Positions 53,501 to 62,790 of a stretch of 64,000 nt of DNA are shown one piece after another (positions within the stretch are counted from its first letter, which is position 1; every line of letters starts with the position of its first letter). The notes under the pieces were generated by a model, which saw nothing but the letters and a program-made list of their open reading frames with translations, had not been told where the DNA came from and made no database searches. Made by a program: the position numbers and the translations under genes. This DNA comes from Azolla caroliniana (Eukaryota > Plantae > Polypodiophyta): contig JBHGNT010000002.1 in the NCBI GenBank assembly GCA_043228905.1, positions 27,652,001 through 27,716,000 on the forward strand. The letters are read 5' to 3'.

Positions 53501-56500
53501 TCCAATGCATCGGAGTACCCATACACATGAATCATAGGTAAGGGTTGAGTCGCAGGCCAACTGCAGTTACTGAATGAACCTTTAAGAGCATCTGATCATG
53601 GTAACAATAGAACAAAAACTTCAATTAGTTTCCCTGAAGAACATCAAATCAAGCATGGACTCTTATTTTAATGATAATTCTTAACAGAATAAATTGGCTG
53701 ACACTTCAAGATACAAACACAAACTCATGCAATATAACACGCACATTTGTAGACCACAAAAATTGTGCAGGCATACAAGATTGTATTCCTGTTATTCTAA
53801 GCATTGAATACTCTCAGTCCTTGAAGCTGCACCCTTATCTGTTTTCAGGAAAAAGGTCGCCATATCAACCAGAATATTTCATAGGAGTTATATGAAGGTG
53901 CTTCCTTATCCGTCAATATAAATCAAGCAGAATTATCCTGTTATAACCATGATGGCTGTAACTTCAAGATGTATGCAAACATTGGTAAATAGAATTCAAT
54001 TGTCACCTGAAATGATGGGACATTGCTAAGCTCATAACTATAAAGGGTTTTCATGGTTTAGTATTAGTAGCCACAAGTTCATGGAAAAGCAGAAGAAAAC
54101 AGAGACACAAAGAAGACAACAATGCACAGCATACTTTTGTGCATGTAAATATTTCCTTTTTCTGTTGTAATACATGTTATTTTGTGGCACACAAAAAATT
54201 TATACAAAACGTTCCAGCTGCCATCCTAACAGTGCAGCCCTTGCCAATATTCATTAATTCACCTTTTCAGATCTAGAATAATCTGTCATTATGCACAAAC
54301 ATAAGTGAGTCATTTTATATTTGCAAAACTAGCCAGCAGTCACACTACACTGACTGAAGAAAAAGTACCTAGCAATCTGTCTCCAGTTGTTGACAAGTCC
54401 AAAATAACTTGAGTCATAATCACAGGTTTTCTAAAACCAAGCAATCTCCTTAGGAATTCATGGCATTCCAGATTGTATAGCTGCAAACAAGATACAATTC
54501 CTAAGAATAGGAGCACACACCTGGAAACTGAAAGTATGATGAATTGATGGTCGCTATGCTCAGCAAAAGTTCCATAATAAGCCAAATGGGTCTCCCCAAA
54601 ACGGATGTCGTAAGATGAATTGTAGAGCATGAACTCTTTATTCCACCATCAATATACAGATATCACACTTACCTCAATCTTAGCTTGCAAATTATTCTCT
54701 TCCACATTTTTTGCAAGGTACTTCAATGATTCTGGGTTTTCATCATTTGCAAATACCCTCCAAGCCTTCTTTGCAGATGCAAGAGCAAAGGCACCTACCC
54801 CTGCAGCTATATCACCTGCCATTGATAGGATTTCAGCACAAAGATAGAAGCAAAATTTGCCTAACTTCTCGGCCTCCCTAATGGCTCTTATAAAGCACAG
54901 TTATAGACATTACTTATTTGCCCACCTGATAATGCTAAACCTCGATAAAAAACATTACTACAGCTAATGCACATTCAAATAAGATCCATCTCATTCACAC
55001 ATTAGCCATGGTAGCCATGGAAGTCAAAGGACTCATGCAAGAGCTACATCTGAAATTTGCTACGAAGATCATTTTCCATTTTCCTAAGCTACCTATCCAG
55101 CTACACAGGATTTTACAATAGTGCGACGAGGTGAAAATACAGAAAAAGCAAACATATCTTAAAAGATGAAAATACCCCTTGTCCTTCTGCAGATCGAGAA
55201 ATCACTCAGTTTCCCACATGAGTTTGGAATTGATCATGGAATAAATGTTTTATGTGATCCCTGTTACGTCTCTGCCATTTTCGTTGGAAAACACACACAT
55301 AAATGCAAGGGGAGTTCCTTCACTCCAACAATGCTCATGCAACCAAATGGTCAGACAGATTCATCTATTTATGAAGATCTATCATATGTACTTCCAATTG
55401 AGAACAATTATAATGAATAAACAACGAAATCTTTATCATACATTCATTACAAAATATCATGTTGTAATTATGTCCAATCAATTGCAGTAGTTCCGGTAGA
55501 TCATATGAGGTTAGGAGTTACACATATATAGACAATATTGCAAAATAAAAAAAATAAAAAATGTAACATACAAACAATATCTTTCTCATTGAACTTCTTA
55601 ATAAGCTGTCCCGCTTCAATTGCTAGTTCTGGAATCCAGGACCTATGACGCAAAAAGTTTGGATATAAGCTTACTTGCCAACAAACAAACTCCAAGTAAA
55701 CATTAAAAGGTTTGTCTACTTTCGATAGGCAAAAAAGTGTGTTTGTATGAACCCCTCTTGTTTCATAACATCATCGAGATATAATGAATGTGATTGGAAC
55801 ATTCTTAAATTTCACTACCACTTTTATATTTCATGTAGCTTCAACAGCTACATCAAAGAGAATTAAAGGTTGTATTTATATTGAAGATACCTAGTAGCAT
55901 GTAATATGTAAGATGTTAAGGAAAAGAAAAGTACACTGTTGCTAAGTTGATGTGAAACCGAATCCCACCCTCAATTATGACTGTGGCAACTGAGTGATTA
56001 CCCGCCAGTACTTCCAATTTAGATTGACAACTATATATTGTTATCTCACGTTTATTGATGACTGTTTTTACCCTAGGCCTATATTTGTCTAAAATAACCT
56101 GTCAACAAGCATGTAAAAGATCACAAATGCAGTTAACCAATATAGAGAAGAGATCAGGAGAAATTATGAAACCTGTATTAGAGAATAAACCCTCTAAAGA
56201 ACCTTTGTATACATTTCCACATATATAGAGATACTTGTATACATTTTCTTGGTAGGATGAAACTCACTAAAAAGATGGCATGCACAGAAGTGAGTAGTAT
56301 CGTCGTGATACTAGAGGTAGTTCAACAAACGAGAATGGATACAGTTAACAATCGGCAACGGTTCGGTTTGAACCAAACCGCGAAACCGCGGCTTAACGGC
56401 TTGAACAGTTCGGTTCAGTTCAGGTTTAGGTTTTTTAAAACGGTTCGGTTTTAACAGCCAAAAACCGTGGTTTAAATAATTTAACGGTTTTTTGTTTTTT

Positions 56501-59500
56501 ATTTTTTATTTTTTATTTTTAAATTATAAAAAAATAAAAAAAAAAATTTTAAACAATCTTTTCATTTTTGGACCTTATTCTCACATTTTAGGAACATCTT
56601 AAAAATTTTAAAAATTTTAAATAATGAAATATTATAAATTTAAAAAATTTAAAATTTTGACCTATGTTGAAAACCGAAAACGAACCGCGAAACCACGGTT
56701 TTTACGGTTTAATGGTTTGATGGTTTGATAATTGTTTTAACGGTTCGGTTTAACAGTTTCGTGGTTCAGTTTGGTTTGGTTCAGGTTTCAAAAAAATTTA
56801 ACGGTTCGGTTTGGACCCTTTCAAACCGAACCGAACCATTGCCGATTGTTAGTACAGTATAGAAGATGCTTGAAGGTGGAAACATAGTAAAAACCTAAAG
56901 ATTGACACAATGAACAAAAACAATCAAATTTGGTTGAGAGATATATGTTCCCTTGGCTTTTCAAGGAATGTGCTGGTTGAAACCTTTCAGAAAATTTGGT
57001 GCCTCTTGTGTATTTTTATGAATCATGATTAAAAGGAGGTGGTGAGCACAAATAAAGCAGGTGTAGGCGAGTGGCAGGGACAATGAGAGCACATGAAAGT
57101 TTTAACCCCGAATATTTTGTTGAGTTTGGGACATCATTCTATTACAGTGGGGACTTTGGCCACTTGAATAGTGTGAACAGGCTAAAACTGTCCAAGTATG
57201 ATGCTTATACAAATTAAATCTCTCTCTACAAAGCTCCAGAAAAGAGCTACTGGGAGGAAAGGTCAACGCGTACATGAGGAAATCCCTTGAAGTCATTACC
57301 CACCGGCAAACTCCCATTTAATGGGCCAGGGAGGCTACTATTAAGCAACTCCCATCATTTCTAGACAATGTTGACAATGTGCCTAAGGGAAGCACTTAGT
57401 GAGAGCATCTGCAAACTATATCAAACTCACAACCAAAATGTGTCCCATCATAACCATGATTTTTCATAGAAAATACATAATTCAAATGCTGCTTTAGAGC
57501 ATTTAATGTGCTCTTTCCTTCCTGGAAAGGAACAAGAATGATGGGGCGTTCAATAGAGTTATTTTTCATGTAAGAACAACGATCTGCATGGCTTGGTTTG
57601 AAATCTCATTAAAATATGAGCCAAACTTTCTAGCCACTATCAAGAGGCCAATTTCAGCCCATAAAGACTTTTATTCAGCTTGCATGGTAGATTTGCTTTA
57701 TCTGGAATAGCAAAAGCTTCTAGTCGTTTCATGTACAGCTCTTCATCTAAATCGCCATGCAAGCATGTTGTTTTAATATCAATTTGATGGAGCTCCAAAT
57801 CAAGAGCAACTGTAACATGAAAGAGGATACGAAGTGTGATCATTATCACATGAGAGAACAACTCCTGGAAATCAATGACCTCTTTTCGTGCATAATCATC
57901 CTTAAGGAATAACCTGACTTTGTACTTGGGTTCACCATCAACAGTTTTTATTTTGTATACCCACTTCTTAGGAATAGATTTCCTACCTTTGGCAACTCAA
58001 CCAAATCCCAAGTATCATTTATCTCTTCTTGTATTTCTAGTTCCCACATGTTTTTCTGTTCGCAAGATATTGCTTCTTTAAAAGTAAGAGGCTCACCCTC
58101 ATCAGTCAACATGATATACTACAATGAGGGATCAAAGCTTGATACATATCTCCAAACTCTTGTGGTTTTGTTGACCCAATGATCCACATTCAGGAGGAAC
58201 CATTAACCCCCAATTTGGGGTTGTCCATCATTTACAGCCTTCTTTTCAGCGTGGTCTGCAGGCATCCGGGAAATTCAATGGCTATACAGCATTTTCTGGC
58301 ACAATTACCACGGGCTCAATGTTATTTTCAGCCCTCTGTTGTGCATCCTAAGACGTCTTTTCAGGACTTATACGTGGCTGTACATGCTAAAATTTGACCC
58401 TTTTACTGTCATCTTTTGAGGCAACATTATTTTGAGAAGCTTTAACTCATTAAAAACATCTTGACTGTGCACTGCTTTCTTAAACTGAAGAACCAAATTT
58501 GTATCCCATTTCATCTTCATCACCAGACTCATGAAGGTACCCTTAATAGATTTAAGGGTCAAGCTTATTTTACAAGTCTTACCAGATGTGCACAACGGCA
58601 TCACAACCAAATATGAGTAAGTGGTTATATGACGCAGGTTTTCCAAACCCTCTTCAAGGATGCCACATTGTAATGTTGTGTGAGGAGATCACTTGCAAAA
58701 TAGGAGCTGCAGTTTTCACAGCCCCTGCACAAAACTCTCGAGGGAGTTCAGTTGTGGCCTCTTAAAATATGTTAACATATATTTCATTCACAAAAAAATC
58801 TGTTATAATGTTTGGCTACACCGTTAGAAGAGGGGCTTTTTTAAAATATGAGAATCACAAAATTTCAGAAATTCAGCACTTATGAATTCCCCACCATCTT
58901 CTGTGCACAGATATTTTAATTTTCAACCTGTCTAGTTGGTCACAAATGCAGAAATGGTGTCATTTTATGCACATCAAAATGACTAGGGTCAAGCATGTTT
59001 TGCTTGCTAAACACACCAAAGTAATAAGAACTCCTTACTTTCTTTCCATATTGACAATCCTTACAAAAGTTTAGTTTTGCTCAGTGAAAATAAGATGAAA
59101 TATTAGGCCTTTCTGCCTCATGTAACCAAGCCTTTTGTTCCAAAGTCCCAAATGAGATTCTATCTCTACAACAGTAGTAAATGTCAGGCCAAAGCTTTTC
59201 CATGCAAGCAATATAGAGTGCCTCTCTTGCTTCCGTTAACAACCAGCATGGTATAGTACCTATAGTCTAGCCATGTGTGGCATTTCCTACCACACTGATA
59301 GTATGTTACATCAGATTGTTTACATTTGCCAAATGCAATTTGTTTCATTACCATTTGTTAGTATCATTTCCCAAATTCATTCAAATCACAAAAAGATTTG
59401 AATAACAACGATTTTCTTCTAATTTTTTATTTGATCATTACCAATATTGAACCCTTGAAACATAAACACAAACTGCATTGAGCATTTTCTAAGTTCATAT

Positions 59501-62500
59501 AGCATCGCTCTAATTGTTTTGTTAAGACTTTGACATAAATGCATTGTGATCTAGTCTACCTTTATATCCTTCCATATTCCATAAAACGTTCTCTTTCATT
59601 CTTGTCAAGAGCACTTATCATTTTATATTTCGTGCTACCAATTTATTTCCTTATCAAGTCAAGCAAAACTACATTTTTTCAACAAACTCACGTGAACATA
59701 TGATCATAATCAAAAGTTGTCCAATTATTATAACTTATTATTTCAACAAACACAAGTGACCATATGAACAGATATTCTCTCTACCACATTTGTTTGTGTG
59801 TGTTTGTTTGTCTATGTATATTTTATACATTTGTACATTAAGTTTTATACACCTTTATTGTGAGCATAGATTGACATATTCGCATTCGTCGGGTTTCCCA
59901 TTCGAATACAAACGAATACGAATACGAATGGGTGGTCAAGTATTCGTTTAACTCAAAAAAAAAAAAAAAAAACTGTCTTTTTTAATTTCCTAGGATAAAA
60001 AAAAGGAACTTGACAATAAATAGGGATAATAAAAGAGGGACTTGGGGATTTGACACTACTAAAATTTTATAATAAATGTATAACTTATAAGTTATAAGTA
60101 TTCGTTTTATTTTTAATAAATAAATAAAATAAAATAAAGGCTCATTAATTTCTCACTTTTTATTCCCTCAAAATTTATGGATATTTTTATTTTGACATTA
60201 AAAATAGTACTTCAAACTAATCATATATTCAAAGTTCATACTAATCATATTTGTATAATAAATATAAAAATATTCGTTTTTTAAAAATTGATTAATTAAA
60301 ATAAGTTTCATAAACTCTCTTGACACTATAATCTATTAATGAATAATTGTTCTTTTTTTGGTAAAATAAATTTATTTAAATAAATAAATAAATATTTTAT
60401 ATTTATTTTGCAAAACGAATGGTTTTTTAATATTCTTGGGGTCATTTCGTATTCTCGAATATTGAGAATATTACGCATGGAGAATATCACGAATATCACG
60501 CATGTGTCAATCTATGATTGTGAGTATGCCAAAATATAAATGTCATAAGAAGGTATCGAAGAAATAATCTAGAAAAGTAGTAAGAGAATATACATGATGT
60601 GGCCGGCATCTAGCATCTATTATTTGAAAGCCTCTAATCAGGGAGAGGAGCATCATTCCTAATAATAAATACAACATTAGATAACATTGACATACCTTGC
60701 CTATGATGTGTTTCAAATGAGAATATTGTTCACCGAGGCATAATTGTGCCATGTGACCCACAATTTTGATTGTTGGTGTAGTGGCCTCTCCTTCTGGAAG
60801 CAACTCTTTTAATATCTATTCAGCAAACCATATTTCAAGTTTCTTCACATGCCTAGTGAAACGAACCAGATTAATAGTTATAACAGTTACCTCTTGCATT
60901 GACCAATACTCATAAAACAACGTGAGCTTGCATGGCACAATCTCTCGTTTCCGTCTACTACTTGAGCGGCCTACTCTTTCATTAAGCAATACCTATATAC
61001 TCATCAATGTTATGTGGAGATTGTCGCAACCAAGCCAAACTCATCGTATGATTTCAGTAACTAGGTACATAGTTCAATGCAATATGATGACAACATCATC
61101 AGAAGACAGACCTGCACCACCCTTGGGAGAGCTTGAATGGGTTTTCTTGCGTAATTTATATCCAGAAGTAATAGGCGTGATGGGCCAACCCATTTCTTCA
61201 CATTGAAAGATACATTCTGAAGACTCTCATCTGAATTGACTTTTGGAACCATCTCTTTTACCATGTAAGATTTATTTTTATGGAACATCATAGGGTTTTT
61301 TTCCCTTTCCTTCCGTAATTCCTTGACAACTTTTCGATCTGGCCGGGAAATTCTTTCAATGTTTTCATAGTCACGAGACCTTATCTTATCTACTGTTCTT
61401 AGCTGTTTCTCAATGCGACCGGGAGGAGCTGTGGTTCCATAAACAGCACGAAGAAGAGAATCTTCGACATCTAAGGTCTTTTTTCCTTTGTCATCCTTCA
61501 ATAGGGACTTGATTTCTGTGTCAAGGTCATCTCCATCAACTCTTACCATGTTATCAACACCCTTCCAATTCAGCAAGTGCCCCTTGATACCATATGAAAT
61601 GTTTCTCCACTCATCCAATGGAACTCTCAATGCAACAACATCAAAGGTTCGGGCAAAATCATACCTATTGAAGGCTCGCAATAAGATCATATCATAAAAA
61701 ATTCAACAAAATTTACTGATAAGACCCAAAATTATAATTTCCCAACTGCAAACATACCTGTTGAAAGCTTTTCTGGAAGACCAATGCTTTTCAGATGCCT
61801 CAATTTTGCATGAAGATTCCGCATGAGAAGGTAGATCATCAGAAGCCCGAGCAAAAGCATACCTATCAAAGGCATGCAATTTAAACATCTGCCAAAATTC
61901 TCAAAGAGACCAGTAAGATGCTACACATTGCTTCTAAGAGAAGAATAAATCAAAAAGGTCATGCGATGTTATCATATCTCTTGAAAGCTTTCCAGGAAGA
62001 CAAGTGTTTTTTTATGATATCTCAAGTTTAAATGTAGCTTTCTCATGTGAAGAATCAAGATAGAACATCAAGAAGTTTGGGCCGAAGTATCATACTTCTC
62101 AAAAACTTTTGTAGAAGAACAATTCTTTTCTGATACCTCGAGTTTTCATGAAGCCTTCTCATGAGAAGAAACAGCATCTAAATTTGAAGAAAAAACGTAC
62201 CTTTGGAAAGCTTTTATAGAGGACGACTGCTTTTCCAGCCTCTCCCATGGAACCTCTTCAGCAAGCTCAGCAGCTATGGAGACGTGTGAAACATCAGATA
62301 AAACACGTTCTTGAGTGAAATCTCTAGTTTCTTCATCATAGTCGTCCACAACAACATCACCACAAGCTCTCAGAGCCGTCGAAGAAATCTTGTTCCATAG
62401 AATCTCTTCGTTAGGATCTAAGGCAGTGGCTATGGCGACATGAGAAGCATCAGAACAACCATTTACTGCAGCGAAATCCCTGTATGTTCCTTCAACATCA

Positions 62501-62790
62501 TCATCATCATCATCATCATCAATGACGTCGTCCTCGTCATCATCGAAGGCTAAATCAATGGATATGTCTGGATCCCTCGGGCGTTTCTGCAAATTCCGAG
62601 GAGAGTTGTGGGAAGTGAGGATCAGGGGCCGTCCAGCTCGGAAAAGGGGTCGACGGTCGAGCTCTGAGCAGATAGAGAAAGAATTGCAGGGCCTTATCCT
62701 CGAAGAAGAAGAAGAAGAAGAAGAAGAAGAAGAAGAAGGAAGAGGAGAAGGAGGAGGAAGCGAAGGTTGCCATGAAAGCCGAGAAAGCAT
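50512..62790 (-). CDS. TRM5: Divergent TRM5/Met-10+ family tRNA (guanine37-N1)-methyltransferase-like protein with Ser/Pro-rich transit-peptide-like N-terminus (~707 aa; ~742 with an optional exon)
   Basis: Exons 62790-62201, [61862-61758 optional], 61664-61112, 60992-60891, 60815-60696, 56098-55935, 55642-55572, 54815-54673, 54480-54369, 53591-53479, 50667-50512; phases consistent. Motifs ALRVP, KGHLLNW, GPSRLLLLD, CKLTLFYEYW, VGHMAQL, KTVINK, LEVLAGNHS, CDIAAGVG, ANDENP, PMIHVYGYS, ASFRLPKAVAF match the plant TRM5b architecture as recalled. Confidence 0.88.
51030..52850 (+). mobile_element. Degenerate RTE-like LINE RT remnant in the last TRM5 intron
   Basis: CFVDF*KAFDTV (~51040), ILLYGDDIVL (~51200), GLSVNIDQTNVMVF, and YTYLGITF (~51400). 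Many stops and frameshifts. Confidence 0.8.
56346..56851. mobile_element. MITE with ~22-bp TIRs and AACCG subterminal repeats (hAT-like)
   Basis: TAACAATCGGCAACGGTTCGGTT at the left end and AACCGAACCATTGCCGATTGTTA at the right end. The imperfect TSD shares TACAGT on both sides. Confidence 0.85.
57370..59330 (-). mobile_element. Decayed Ty1/copia pol remnant in a TRM5 intron
   Basis: LWNKRLGYM (~59145), LCTEDGGEFISAEF (~58900), EPLTFKEA (~58090), and LHQIDIKTTCLHGDLDEELYM...KLNKSLYGLK (57790-57650). Confidence 0.85.
59865..60516. mobile_element. hAT-type MITE with perfect 8-bp TSD ATTGTGAG
   Basis: TIRs CATAGATTGACA...TGTCAATCTATG. TSD at 59857-59864 and 60517-60524. Internal CGAATA repeats. 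Confidence 0.92.

What the first reader, a model, noticed from the sequence alone, without database searches (positions are those of the whole stretch)
61640..62230. Introns apparently born from tandem duplication of a coding AG|GT motif: four same-phase dual splice sites in TRM5
Seen on minus: a ~100-120-nt unit encoding ..SHxE...KLExSEK..SSxKAFxRYxF is repeated about six times. Four copies keep AG|GT at the Arg of AF-x-R-Y: CAAAG|GTACG (62201/62200), GATAG|GTATG (61863/61862), AACAG|GTATG (61758/61757), AATAG|GTATG (61665/61664). Unspliced RNA hits TGA at 62146. Any donor-acceptor pairing among these sites regenerates AFxRY in frame, and 61862-61758 is a stop-free 105-nt symmetric cassette. 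The two middle copies (~62100, ~61980) have lost AGGT and gained stops. Established: tandem duplication of an AGGT is a proposed but rarely documented route to intron gain, and AG|GT sites are the recursive-splicing signature. Inference: a snapshot of intron birth, giving a modular variable-length linker.
Basis: partly seen in the sequence, partly recalled or inferred. Interest (0 to 1): 0.82.

Follow-up and report, generated by a model that had tools for sequence, protein, structure and literature searches.

The report
Fern introns born from duplicated exon
A fern tRNA-methyltransferase gene has two introns that transcript assemblies show cut out at repeated AG|GT sites; the first is largely built of decayed copies of the neighbouring coding exon and the second likely is too, so both likely arose by tandem exon duplication, a clear plant example of an already known way to gain introns.

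Summary
A 105-nt coding unit of a fern TRM5-family gene is repeated head to tail with six junctions, four keeping AG|GTAYG in one phase. Transcript contigs confirm intron 1 (62200-61863; 5 of 7 RNA-like runs) and intron 2 (61757-61665; 6 of 7), with the 105-nt exon 2 included. No skip junction or other acceptor appeared in 8 runs (contigs drop rare forms). Intron 1 starts with a gap-free 73/105 copy of exon 2 and a second copy, so its donor is a former exonic AG|GT. Intron 2 is older and more decayed: 105 nt in a relative, weakly collinear with exon 2, with an inner copy of the junction. Fifty-eight apparent genomic first-exon ORFs outside the fern clade cross this site unbroken; gene structure in other ferns could not be seen. 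Not supported: a fresh 'snapshot' (all six sampled relatives splice the same way), recursive splicing, or a variable linker. This is a new, RNA-backed case of the Rogers tandem-duplication route, possibly with one acceptor copied from the older intron as in potato RdRp. The scan has noted this route 21 times on other genomes.

The parts
62201..62790 (-). Exon 1 of the TRM5-family gene (ATG at 62790, open frame); low-complexity N-terminal extension ending ...SSIKAFQ-AG
   Evidence: Open frame; transcript contigs cover 62198-62692 and join to exon 2
61863..62200 (-). Intron 1, 338 nt, GT..AG, phase 2; three decayed repeat segments
   Evidence: Joint skipping 338 nt in X14, X2 and X12, X3, X18; X1 shows the exon 1 end as a 13-nt loose end
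62096..62200 (-). Intron 1 segment a: gap-free 105-nt decayed copy of exon 2, starting at the used donor AG|GTACGT; one in-frame stop
   Evidence: 73/105 identical without gaps, interior p<1e-4; differences spread 10/10/12 over codon positions, 18 GC>AT vs 7 AT>GC
61978..62095 (-). Intron 1 segment b: 118-nt decayed copy of exon 2 with indels; its 5' junction has lost AG (AA|GT) and its 3' junction has lost GT (AG|AT)
   Evidence: 67% to exon 2, z 11; a 7-nt indel at 62050 is absent in X13 and X18
61863..61977 (-). Intron 1 segment c: 115 nt (118 in L001), strongly decayed; supplies the used acceptor TTTGATAG|GTATG
   Evidence: z 3.3 to segment b, 1.6 to exon 2; acceptor region plus exon 2 start is 77% identical over 44 nt to the intron 2 acceptor plus exon 3 start
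61758..61862 (-). Exon 2, 105 nt, symmetric; the one repeat unit kept as coding (exon-3-start-like 27 nt plus exon-1-end-like 78 nt); begins GTATG
   Evidence: Included in every contig that covers it; 105 nt and open in L001, 7 non-synonymous vs 3 synonymous codon changes
61665..61757 (-). Intron 2, 93 nt here and 105 nt in relative L001; GT..AG, phase 2; last 28 nt resemble the exon 3 start and the segment b|c junction
   Evidence: Joint skipping 93 nt in X1, X2, X5 and X12, X3, X18
61112..61664 (-). Exon 3; starts G|TAT GAT TTT (R-Y-D-F-A-R-T-F-D), the first conserved stretch of plant TRM5
   Evidence: Homologue searches; joints
60891..60992 (-). Exon 4
   Evidence: Joints skipping 119 and 75 nt; open spliced frame
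60696..60815 (-). Exon 5; the gene continues to at least 54343 (TYW2_N_2 and TRM5-TYW2_MTfase hits)

Best explanation
Two spliced introns sit in a tandem array of a 105-nt coding unit and likely arose when duplications across an exonic AG|GT (the Arg-Tyr codons of F-N-R-Y-D-F) created paired donors and acceptors, so that spare copies were spliced out while one copy stayed as exon 2. Shown: both introns are removed at the repeated AG|GT sites, exon 2 is included, the frame is open, and the 5' 223 nt of intron 1 are two decayed exon 2 copies in which exon-end sequence abuts exon-start sequence with no intron between. Inferred: the ancestor was intronless here. The duplications were tolerated because the site lies at the border between a variable N-terminal extension and the conserved TRM5 region. 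Intron 2 came first, from one unit plus a short (~27-nt) copy of the exon start that supplied its AG. Intron 1 paired an exonic donor with a similar acceptor, possibly copied from intron 2. The spliced-out copies then decayed neutrally and drifted AU-rich, and the two inner AG|GT sites were lost, leaving one fixed isoform.
For: Splicing: intron 1 joint in 5 of 7 RNA-like runs and intron 2 joint in 6 of 7; the others lack a listed joint there (X1 shows a matching loose end, X5 and X14 lack cover); 6 organism labels, 7 studies. Intron 1 segment a vs exon 2: 73/105 without gaps, interior 68/97 vs null 26+/-4; segment b z 11. Intron 2 is exactly 105 nt in L001 and gap-free similar to window exon 2 (interior 40/97 vs 25.8+/-4.2, p 0.001; p 0.02 against L001's own exon 2). 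An inner junction in L001 intron 2 matches the segment b|c junction at 19/25, reached by 1 of 127,950 window positions. The last 26 nt of intron 2 resemble the exon 3 start: top 0.4% (window) and 1.2% (L001) of 2,694 YAG sites. Ancestral state: 58 of 128 proteins holding both anchor motifs look like genomic first-exon ORFs that run unbroken through the site, some on contigs of 13-337 kb. Fern orthologues have a single FNR[LF]DFAR-type motif, and three (P0003, P0006, P0010) lack the Arg. GC falls from 0.43 in exon 2 to 0.29-0.35 in the intronic copies.
Against: No genomic sequence of the orthologue from a fern outside the four-row clade was found, so an older fern intron at this site is not excluded. 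Intron 2's likeness to the unit is weak: 3' and 5' halves mostly fail a semi-global test (best p 0.03). Its length also varies (93, 105, and about 120 nt in P0004), and whether 105 is ancestral is not polarised. The short-copy signal for intron 1's acceptor is only top 2.5-5%, no better than control intron 4 at 5%. The last 65 nt of introns 1 and 2 are not significantly alike (best p 0.055). Several of these tests were made after seeing the likeness by eye. The 58 ORFs are classed as genomic by inference; intron-retaining transcripts or a hidden stop-free intron could be among them.
Confidence: 0.77

Rival explanations
1. Intron propagation or hybrid route: an ordinary intron already stood at FNR|Y in the fern ancestor. 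A duplication spanning it made intron 1's acceptor and exon 2 (as in Arabidopsis TOUCH3 or potato RdRp). Later exon 2 duplicates were absorbed at the 5' end of intron 1, whose donor is exon-derived. Only one splice site would then be new.
For: Intron 1 end plus exon 2 start is 77-82% identical over 44 nt to intron 2 end plus exon 3 start. The last 16 nt before the two acceptors share 11-13/16, against 5-10/16 with the coding-type ends. Intron 2 is present in distant relatives P0004 and P0005. Fern gene structures are unseen.
Against: Exon-end sequence abuts exon-start sequence at three junctions inside or at the edge of intron 1 and once inside intron 2, which needs an intronless template. Intron 2 has unit length in L001 and collinear likeness. 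TRM5 outside the fern clade appears to lack the intron. The two introns are not alike beyond their last ~18 nt.
Confidence: 0.17
2. Living dual-specific array, as in human UBC: the four AG|GT sites are used in several pairings or recursively, giving proteins with zero or one extra unit.
For: All four sites are in phase. The exon 1-exon 3 join reads QSSSIKAFQRYDFARTFD in frame. Splicing intron 1 rebuilds AAG|GTATGC, a donor-like site. PMC10809524 shows such behaviour for UBC.
Against: 0 of 8 laid runs list a joint 62201>61664 or any other pairing; only the two fixed joints appear, at depth up to 168. The inner sites have lost AGGT. The used donors are GTAYGT and the exon starts are GTATGC/A.
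Confidence: 0.1
3. Assembly or alignment artefact, or chance likeness of AU-rich intron DNA to the exon.
For: Repeats make the joints ambiguous by 5-7 nt.
Against: Independent genomic contigs (L001, X13) hold the same architecture with their own substitutions. Copies are 30% diverged, and shuffle tests give z 9-12.
Confidence: 0.01

Closest known systems
Rogers model: intron gain by tandem duplication of an AGGT-containing exon segment (vertebrate ATP2A1, re-enacted with ATP2A2, PMC3265369; reviewed in PMC3443670, 188 events in Table 1)
   Same: Intron sequence resembles flanking coding sequence, both ends lie at AG|GT, and the frame is preserved.
   Different: Several rounds rather than one: two introns, one unit kept as a new 35-residue exon, and inner sites eroded. 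The protein is lengthened ('imprecise' gain), and the source copies are still readable.
Potato RdRp PGSC0003DMG402000361 intron 2 (PMC4974935)
   Same: Plant gene; donor recruited from exon sequence; the acceptor of intron 1 here may be copied from a neighbouring intron together with the next exon's start.
   Different: There the parent intron is ancestral and only 10 nt are exon-derived. Here at least 223 nt of intron 1 are exon copies, and the neighbouring intron itself looks duplication-born.
Schizosaccharomyces SPOG_01682 / SOCG_00815 introns made of 24-nt tandem coding repeats (PMC3629103)
   Same: Multi-copy coding array in which several units form an intron at proto-splice sites.
   Different: Unit of 105 nt, decayed by 30% or more; two introns with a retained unit between them; junctions seen in several related organisms.
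[quoted passage not shown]
   Same: AG|GT at an Arg codon delimits each unit; intron 2 is one unit long in L001.
   Different: UBC splices stochastically among near-identical units. Here one fixed pattern was seen, and the intronic units have stops and AU-rich drift.
Plant TRM5 family, tRNA (guanine-37 N1) methyltransferase, AtTrm5b (At4g27340) type (PMC6344853)
   Same: Homologous exon 3 region, downstream TYW2_N_2 and TRM5-TYW2_MTfase hits, and a shared intron position after ..LPxxxQ/K|V.
   Different: Fast-evolving fern branch. Assignment to the b type rests on database names ('methyltransferase 1/2') and recall, not on a test against At4g27340 itself.

Membership tests
Intron gain by tandem duplication of an AGGT exon segment (Rogers model) | The segment is really spliced, with GT and AG at duplicated AG|GT sites | tested here: met
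   Joints in 5 of 7 and 6 of 7 RNA-like runs
Intron gain by tandem duplication of an AGGT exon segment (Rogers model) | Intron sequence is a recognisable copy of flanking coding sequence: intron 1 | tested here: met
   73/105 gap-free, and 67% with gaps, to exon 2
Intron gain by tandem duplication of an AGGT exon segment (Rogers model) | Intron sequence is a recognisable copy of flanking coding sequence: intron 2 | tested here: inconclusive
   For: 105 nt in L001, p 0.001-0.03 gap-free, inner junction 19/25, top 0.4-1.2% self-likeness. Against: half-by-half tests mostly not significant. Leans met.
Intron gain by tandem duplication of an AGGT exon segment (Rogers model) | Clear phylogeny: orthologues lack the intron and have one motif copy | tested here: inconclusive
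   58 of 128 apparent genomic ORFs outside the fern clade are unbroken; fern orthologue proteins have one motif; no genomic DNA for other ferns
Intron gain by tandem duplication of an AGGT exon segment (Rogers model) | Reading frame preserved after splicing | tested here: met
   Exons 1-5 join to 490 codons without a stop
Dual-specific splice site array / recursive splicing | The same AG|GT is used both as acceptor and as donor, or units are variably included | tested here: inconclusive
   No such joint in 8 laid runs, but all are contigs, which drop rare variants; not filed under this family
Dual-specific splice site array / recursive splicing | Lariats or nascent intermediates from the rebuilt donor | not testable with these tools
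   No raw-read run was offered
TRM5 family | TRM5-TYW2_MTfase domain and homology to named plant TRM5 proteins | tested here: met
   PF02475 E 1e-7 on one exon; nearest full-length homologue P0003 passes the PF02475 and PF25133 cut-offs; tree
TRM5 family | m1G37 methyltransferase activity | not testable with these tools
   Needs an assay; AtTrm5b gave no activity in vitro (PMC6344853 passage)

The most novel reading that the evidence does not exclude
Exon 2 is a plant recursive-splicing exon. After intron 1 is removed, AAG|GTATG is rebuilt as a donor, and the mature mRNA still holds a complete Rogers proto-intron (GT..105 nt..CAG|G). Re-splicing would then regenerate the ancestral single-motif protein unless the exon junction complex or GC content protects it. 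One gene would show the same unit as exon, as intron and as a switchable intermediate.
Probability: 0.12. Interest if true: 0.65.

Novelty: new member of a known kind. Interest (0 to 1): 0.38.

Why it matters
Most gained introns have no identifiable source, and plant cases with a readable source are few in the papers seen. Here one 105-nt unit survives in three states in one gene: a coding exon, intron filler with its splice sites eroded, and intron ends in use. That makes a compact natural test of what turns a duplicated plant exon into an intron (AU-richness, +5/+6 donor bases, loss of inner AG|GT). It does not change the model, which is established and was re-enacted experimentally.

Tried and rejected
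No whole genome is held, so no genome-wide intron control or paralogue search was possible; within the window no second copy of the region exists. Tandem Repeats Finder missed the array. No listed holder run is on record as RNA and all are contigs; 8 of 20 runs were laid, and the 'joined form in other runs' table was not given. Absence of cover in intron 1 is not used as evidence. The metagenome scan gave 1 true relative (L001); the other 40 of 41 loci are weak (E 3e-5 or worse) and were dropped unread. The contig of P0004 was not recovered, so its intron DNA and whether it has intron 1 are unknown. The idea that the last 60-65 nt of intron 1 are a copy of intron 2 was tested and not supported. 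A junction profile did not pick up the suspected hidden junctions at 61889 and 61693 in the window; the inner-junction match is 19/25 in L001 but only 15/25 in the window itself (expected 0.08 per 105 nt). My note called the gene a fern paralogue; the tree (40 chosen rows of about 158 proteins) is equally consistent with a fast-evolving fern orthologue. Literature: 'TRM5 + fern + intron' gave 2 unrelated papers and 'intron gain + fern + Azolla' gave 9, none on this gene by title or abstract start; this case was not found in those searches. No look-alike window among earlier findings. No structure or complex prediction was run, as it would not bear on the question.

Full report
Gene. The region lies in the 5' part of a minus-strand TRM5-family gene. 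Exon 3 finds named fern proteins first (Adiantum capillus-veneris, A. nelumboides, Ceratopteris richardii). In a tree of 40 chosen rows the window protein falls in an 11-row clade with them (100/99). Downstream exons hit TYW2_N_2 and TRM5-TYW2_MTfase. The organism is therefore a fern; that it is a water fern is an untested guess. No genome is held.

Observation. AGGTAYG occurs 4 times in 591 nt, about 0.07 expected. Cutting at the six junctions gives segments of 105, 118 and 115 nt (intron 1 a, b, c), 105 nt (exon 2) and 93 nt (intron 2). Segment a matches exon 2 at 73/105 with no gap and segment b at 67% (z 11). Segment c and intron 2 are weak (z 1.6 and 3.5). The unspliced frame stops at 62148-62146.

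Splicing. Eight of 20 listed runs were laid; seven behave as RNA and one (X13) as DNA. The 338-nt joint appears in X14, X2, X12, X3 and X18. X1 shows the exon 1 end as a loose end at that place, and X5 has no cover. The 93-nt joint appears in X1, X2, X5, X12, X3 and X18; X14 has no cover. One X12 contig runs through exons 1 to 5. Exons 1-5 join to 490 codons without a stop. No run lists a skip of exon 2, use of the GGCAG at 61889, or any other pairing. All runs are contigs, which drop rare variants, so this limits but does not exclude minor isoforms. Joint positions are ambiguous by 5-7 nt because of the repeat; the GT..AG reading falls on the AG|GT sites.

Origin of intron 1. The unit is exon-3-start-like sequence (27 nt) followed by exon-1-end-like sequence (78 nt). 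At 62201|62200, 62096|62095 and 61978|61977 exon-end sequence abuts exon-start sequence directly in genomic DNA. That can only be copied from an intronless template, so the donor of intron 1 is a former exonic AG|GT. Differences between segment a and exon 2 are spread evenly over codon positions (10/10/12) and lean GC>AT 18 to 7, unpolarised. GC is 0.32-0.35 in intron 1 segments against 0.43 in exon 2. This fits neutral decay with drift to the AU-rich make-up of plant introns (inference). The two inner junctions have lost AG or GT.

Origin of intron 2. It is older and less readable. In L001, a genomic contig 94% identical to the window, intron 2 is exactly 105 nt; X13 shows the same 12 extra bases. 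Without gaps, its interior matches window exon 2 at 40/97 (null 25.8+/-4.2, p 0.001), L001 exon 2 at p 0.02 and segment a at p 0.03. Its last 28 nt begin with a copy of the segment b|c junction: 19/25 in L001, reached by 1 of 127,950 window positions, but only 15/25 in the window. The same 26 nt resemble the exon 3 start (RTFD read as RAFN or RVFD): top 0.4% and 1.2% of 2,694 YAG sites. Against this, half-by-half semi-global tests are mostly not significant. The same self-likeness test for intron 1's acceptor (2.5-5%) is no better than control intron 4 (5%). Some tests followed a likeness seen by eye. The two acceptors plus exon starts share 77-82% over 44 nt, but the introns are not alike further upstream (best p 0.055). 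Whether intron 1's acceptor was copied from intron 2 therefore stays open.

Age and ancestral state. All six organism labels laid show the same splicing where covered. Genomic ORFs of more distant relatives read through intron 2: P0004 (68% to exon 3) goes from SFNR through 40 unrelated codons to YDR-YDFARTF, preceded by an exon-2-like peptide, and P0005 shows the intron end. So this is not a fresh event. Outside the fern clade, 58 of 128 proteins with both anchor motifs start at Met, cross the site unbroken and end in a short tail just past the next conserved exon border. That is what genomic first-exon ORFs look like, and some lie on contigs of 13-337 kb. Fern orthologue proteins have one motif, mostly F-N-R-[LF]-x-F-A-R, so an AGG codon followed by a T-starting codon was within easy reach; three lack the Arg. 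No genomic DNA of other ferns was found, which is the main gap. The site marks the start of the conserved region; the fungal homologue P0068 begins just before it, and the sequence upstream varies greatly in length. Exon 2 changes fast (7 non-synonymous vs 3 synonymous codons against L001; exon 3: 6 vs 11) yet stays open: a weakly constrained spacer, not a shown regulatory module.

Comparison. The route is Rogers' model. Papers as seen: PMC3265369 (abstract, results and start of discussion); PMC4974935 (introduction to conclusions, parts 1-3 of 5), which also describes TOUCH3 and the distinction between creating and multiplying introns; PMC3443670 (passages, Table 1 with 188 events); PMC3629103 (passages); PMC10809524 (abstract, background, passages); PMC6344853 (passages). 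Papers on exon-junction-complex suppression of re-splicing were seen as listings only. No supplements were read; those of PMC10809524 or of Gao and Lynch 2009 (seen only as a reference) could list further plant cases. Searches did not show this gene. Earlier notes of this scan list 21 findings with the same keywords in at least 13 other genomes; none holds 'fern' as well, and none is a look-alike of this DNA.

Verdict. Real, RNA-backed and well explained by a known mechanism. Intron 1's exon origin is close to certain (about 0.93) and intron 2's is likely (about 0.75). Recursive use and a variable linker are unsupported. New member of a known kind; interest 0.38.

Noticed in passing
window 62498-62429 vs 62339-62273 (minus): An older internal duplication inside exon 1 (71% over 70 nt, period about 159 nt; RDFAAV..SDASHVAIA vs RDFTQE..SDVSHVSIA) that stayed coding. 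Its R-D junctions read AG|GG and AG|AG, not AG|GT. If homologous to the unit, it is a natural control: copies without GT were not intronised.
   Followed up: no
protein P0058 (and P0071, P0072), about residues 150-205: Another fern orthologue seems to have its own coding tandem repeat just before the same motif (SWDD..SSQPCNKFN / SWDD..SQPSSKPFN; seen by eye), suggesting this spacer duplicates repeatedly in ferns.
   Followed up: no
window 57643-57996 (minus), within the 4.6-kb intron after exon 5: Decayed copia-type retrotransposon remnant (RVT_2, E 9e-24), with further broken pieces between about 57400 and 59300.
   Followed up: partly
window 54343-54900 (minus): The methyltransferase exons are divergent: the stretch that reads VVMNLP in angiosperm TRM5 reads VILDLS here and VVFSLP, VVLSSP or VVMDLP in other ferns. 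That the NLP asparagine is catalytic is recalled, not tested; fern proteins may have altered activity.
   Followed up: no
window 60993-61111 (intron 3): Contigs across the intron 3 / exon 4 or exon 3 border without a joint in X14, X5, X3 and X18 (60965-61139) suggest partial retention of intron 3 or unspliced RNA or DNA; its acceptor also reads AG|GTATTG.
   Followed up: no
P0004, residues 38-77: In this relative intron 2 is about 120 nt, in frame and stop-free, so retention there would give a longer protein instead of a stop.
   Followed up: no
run X1, window 61228-61864: Two haplotypes about 4-8% apart in one run, as in a hybrid or polyploid; both appear to keep exon 2.
   Followed up: no
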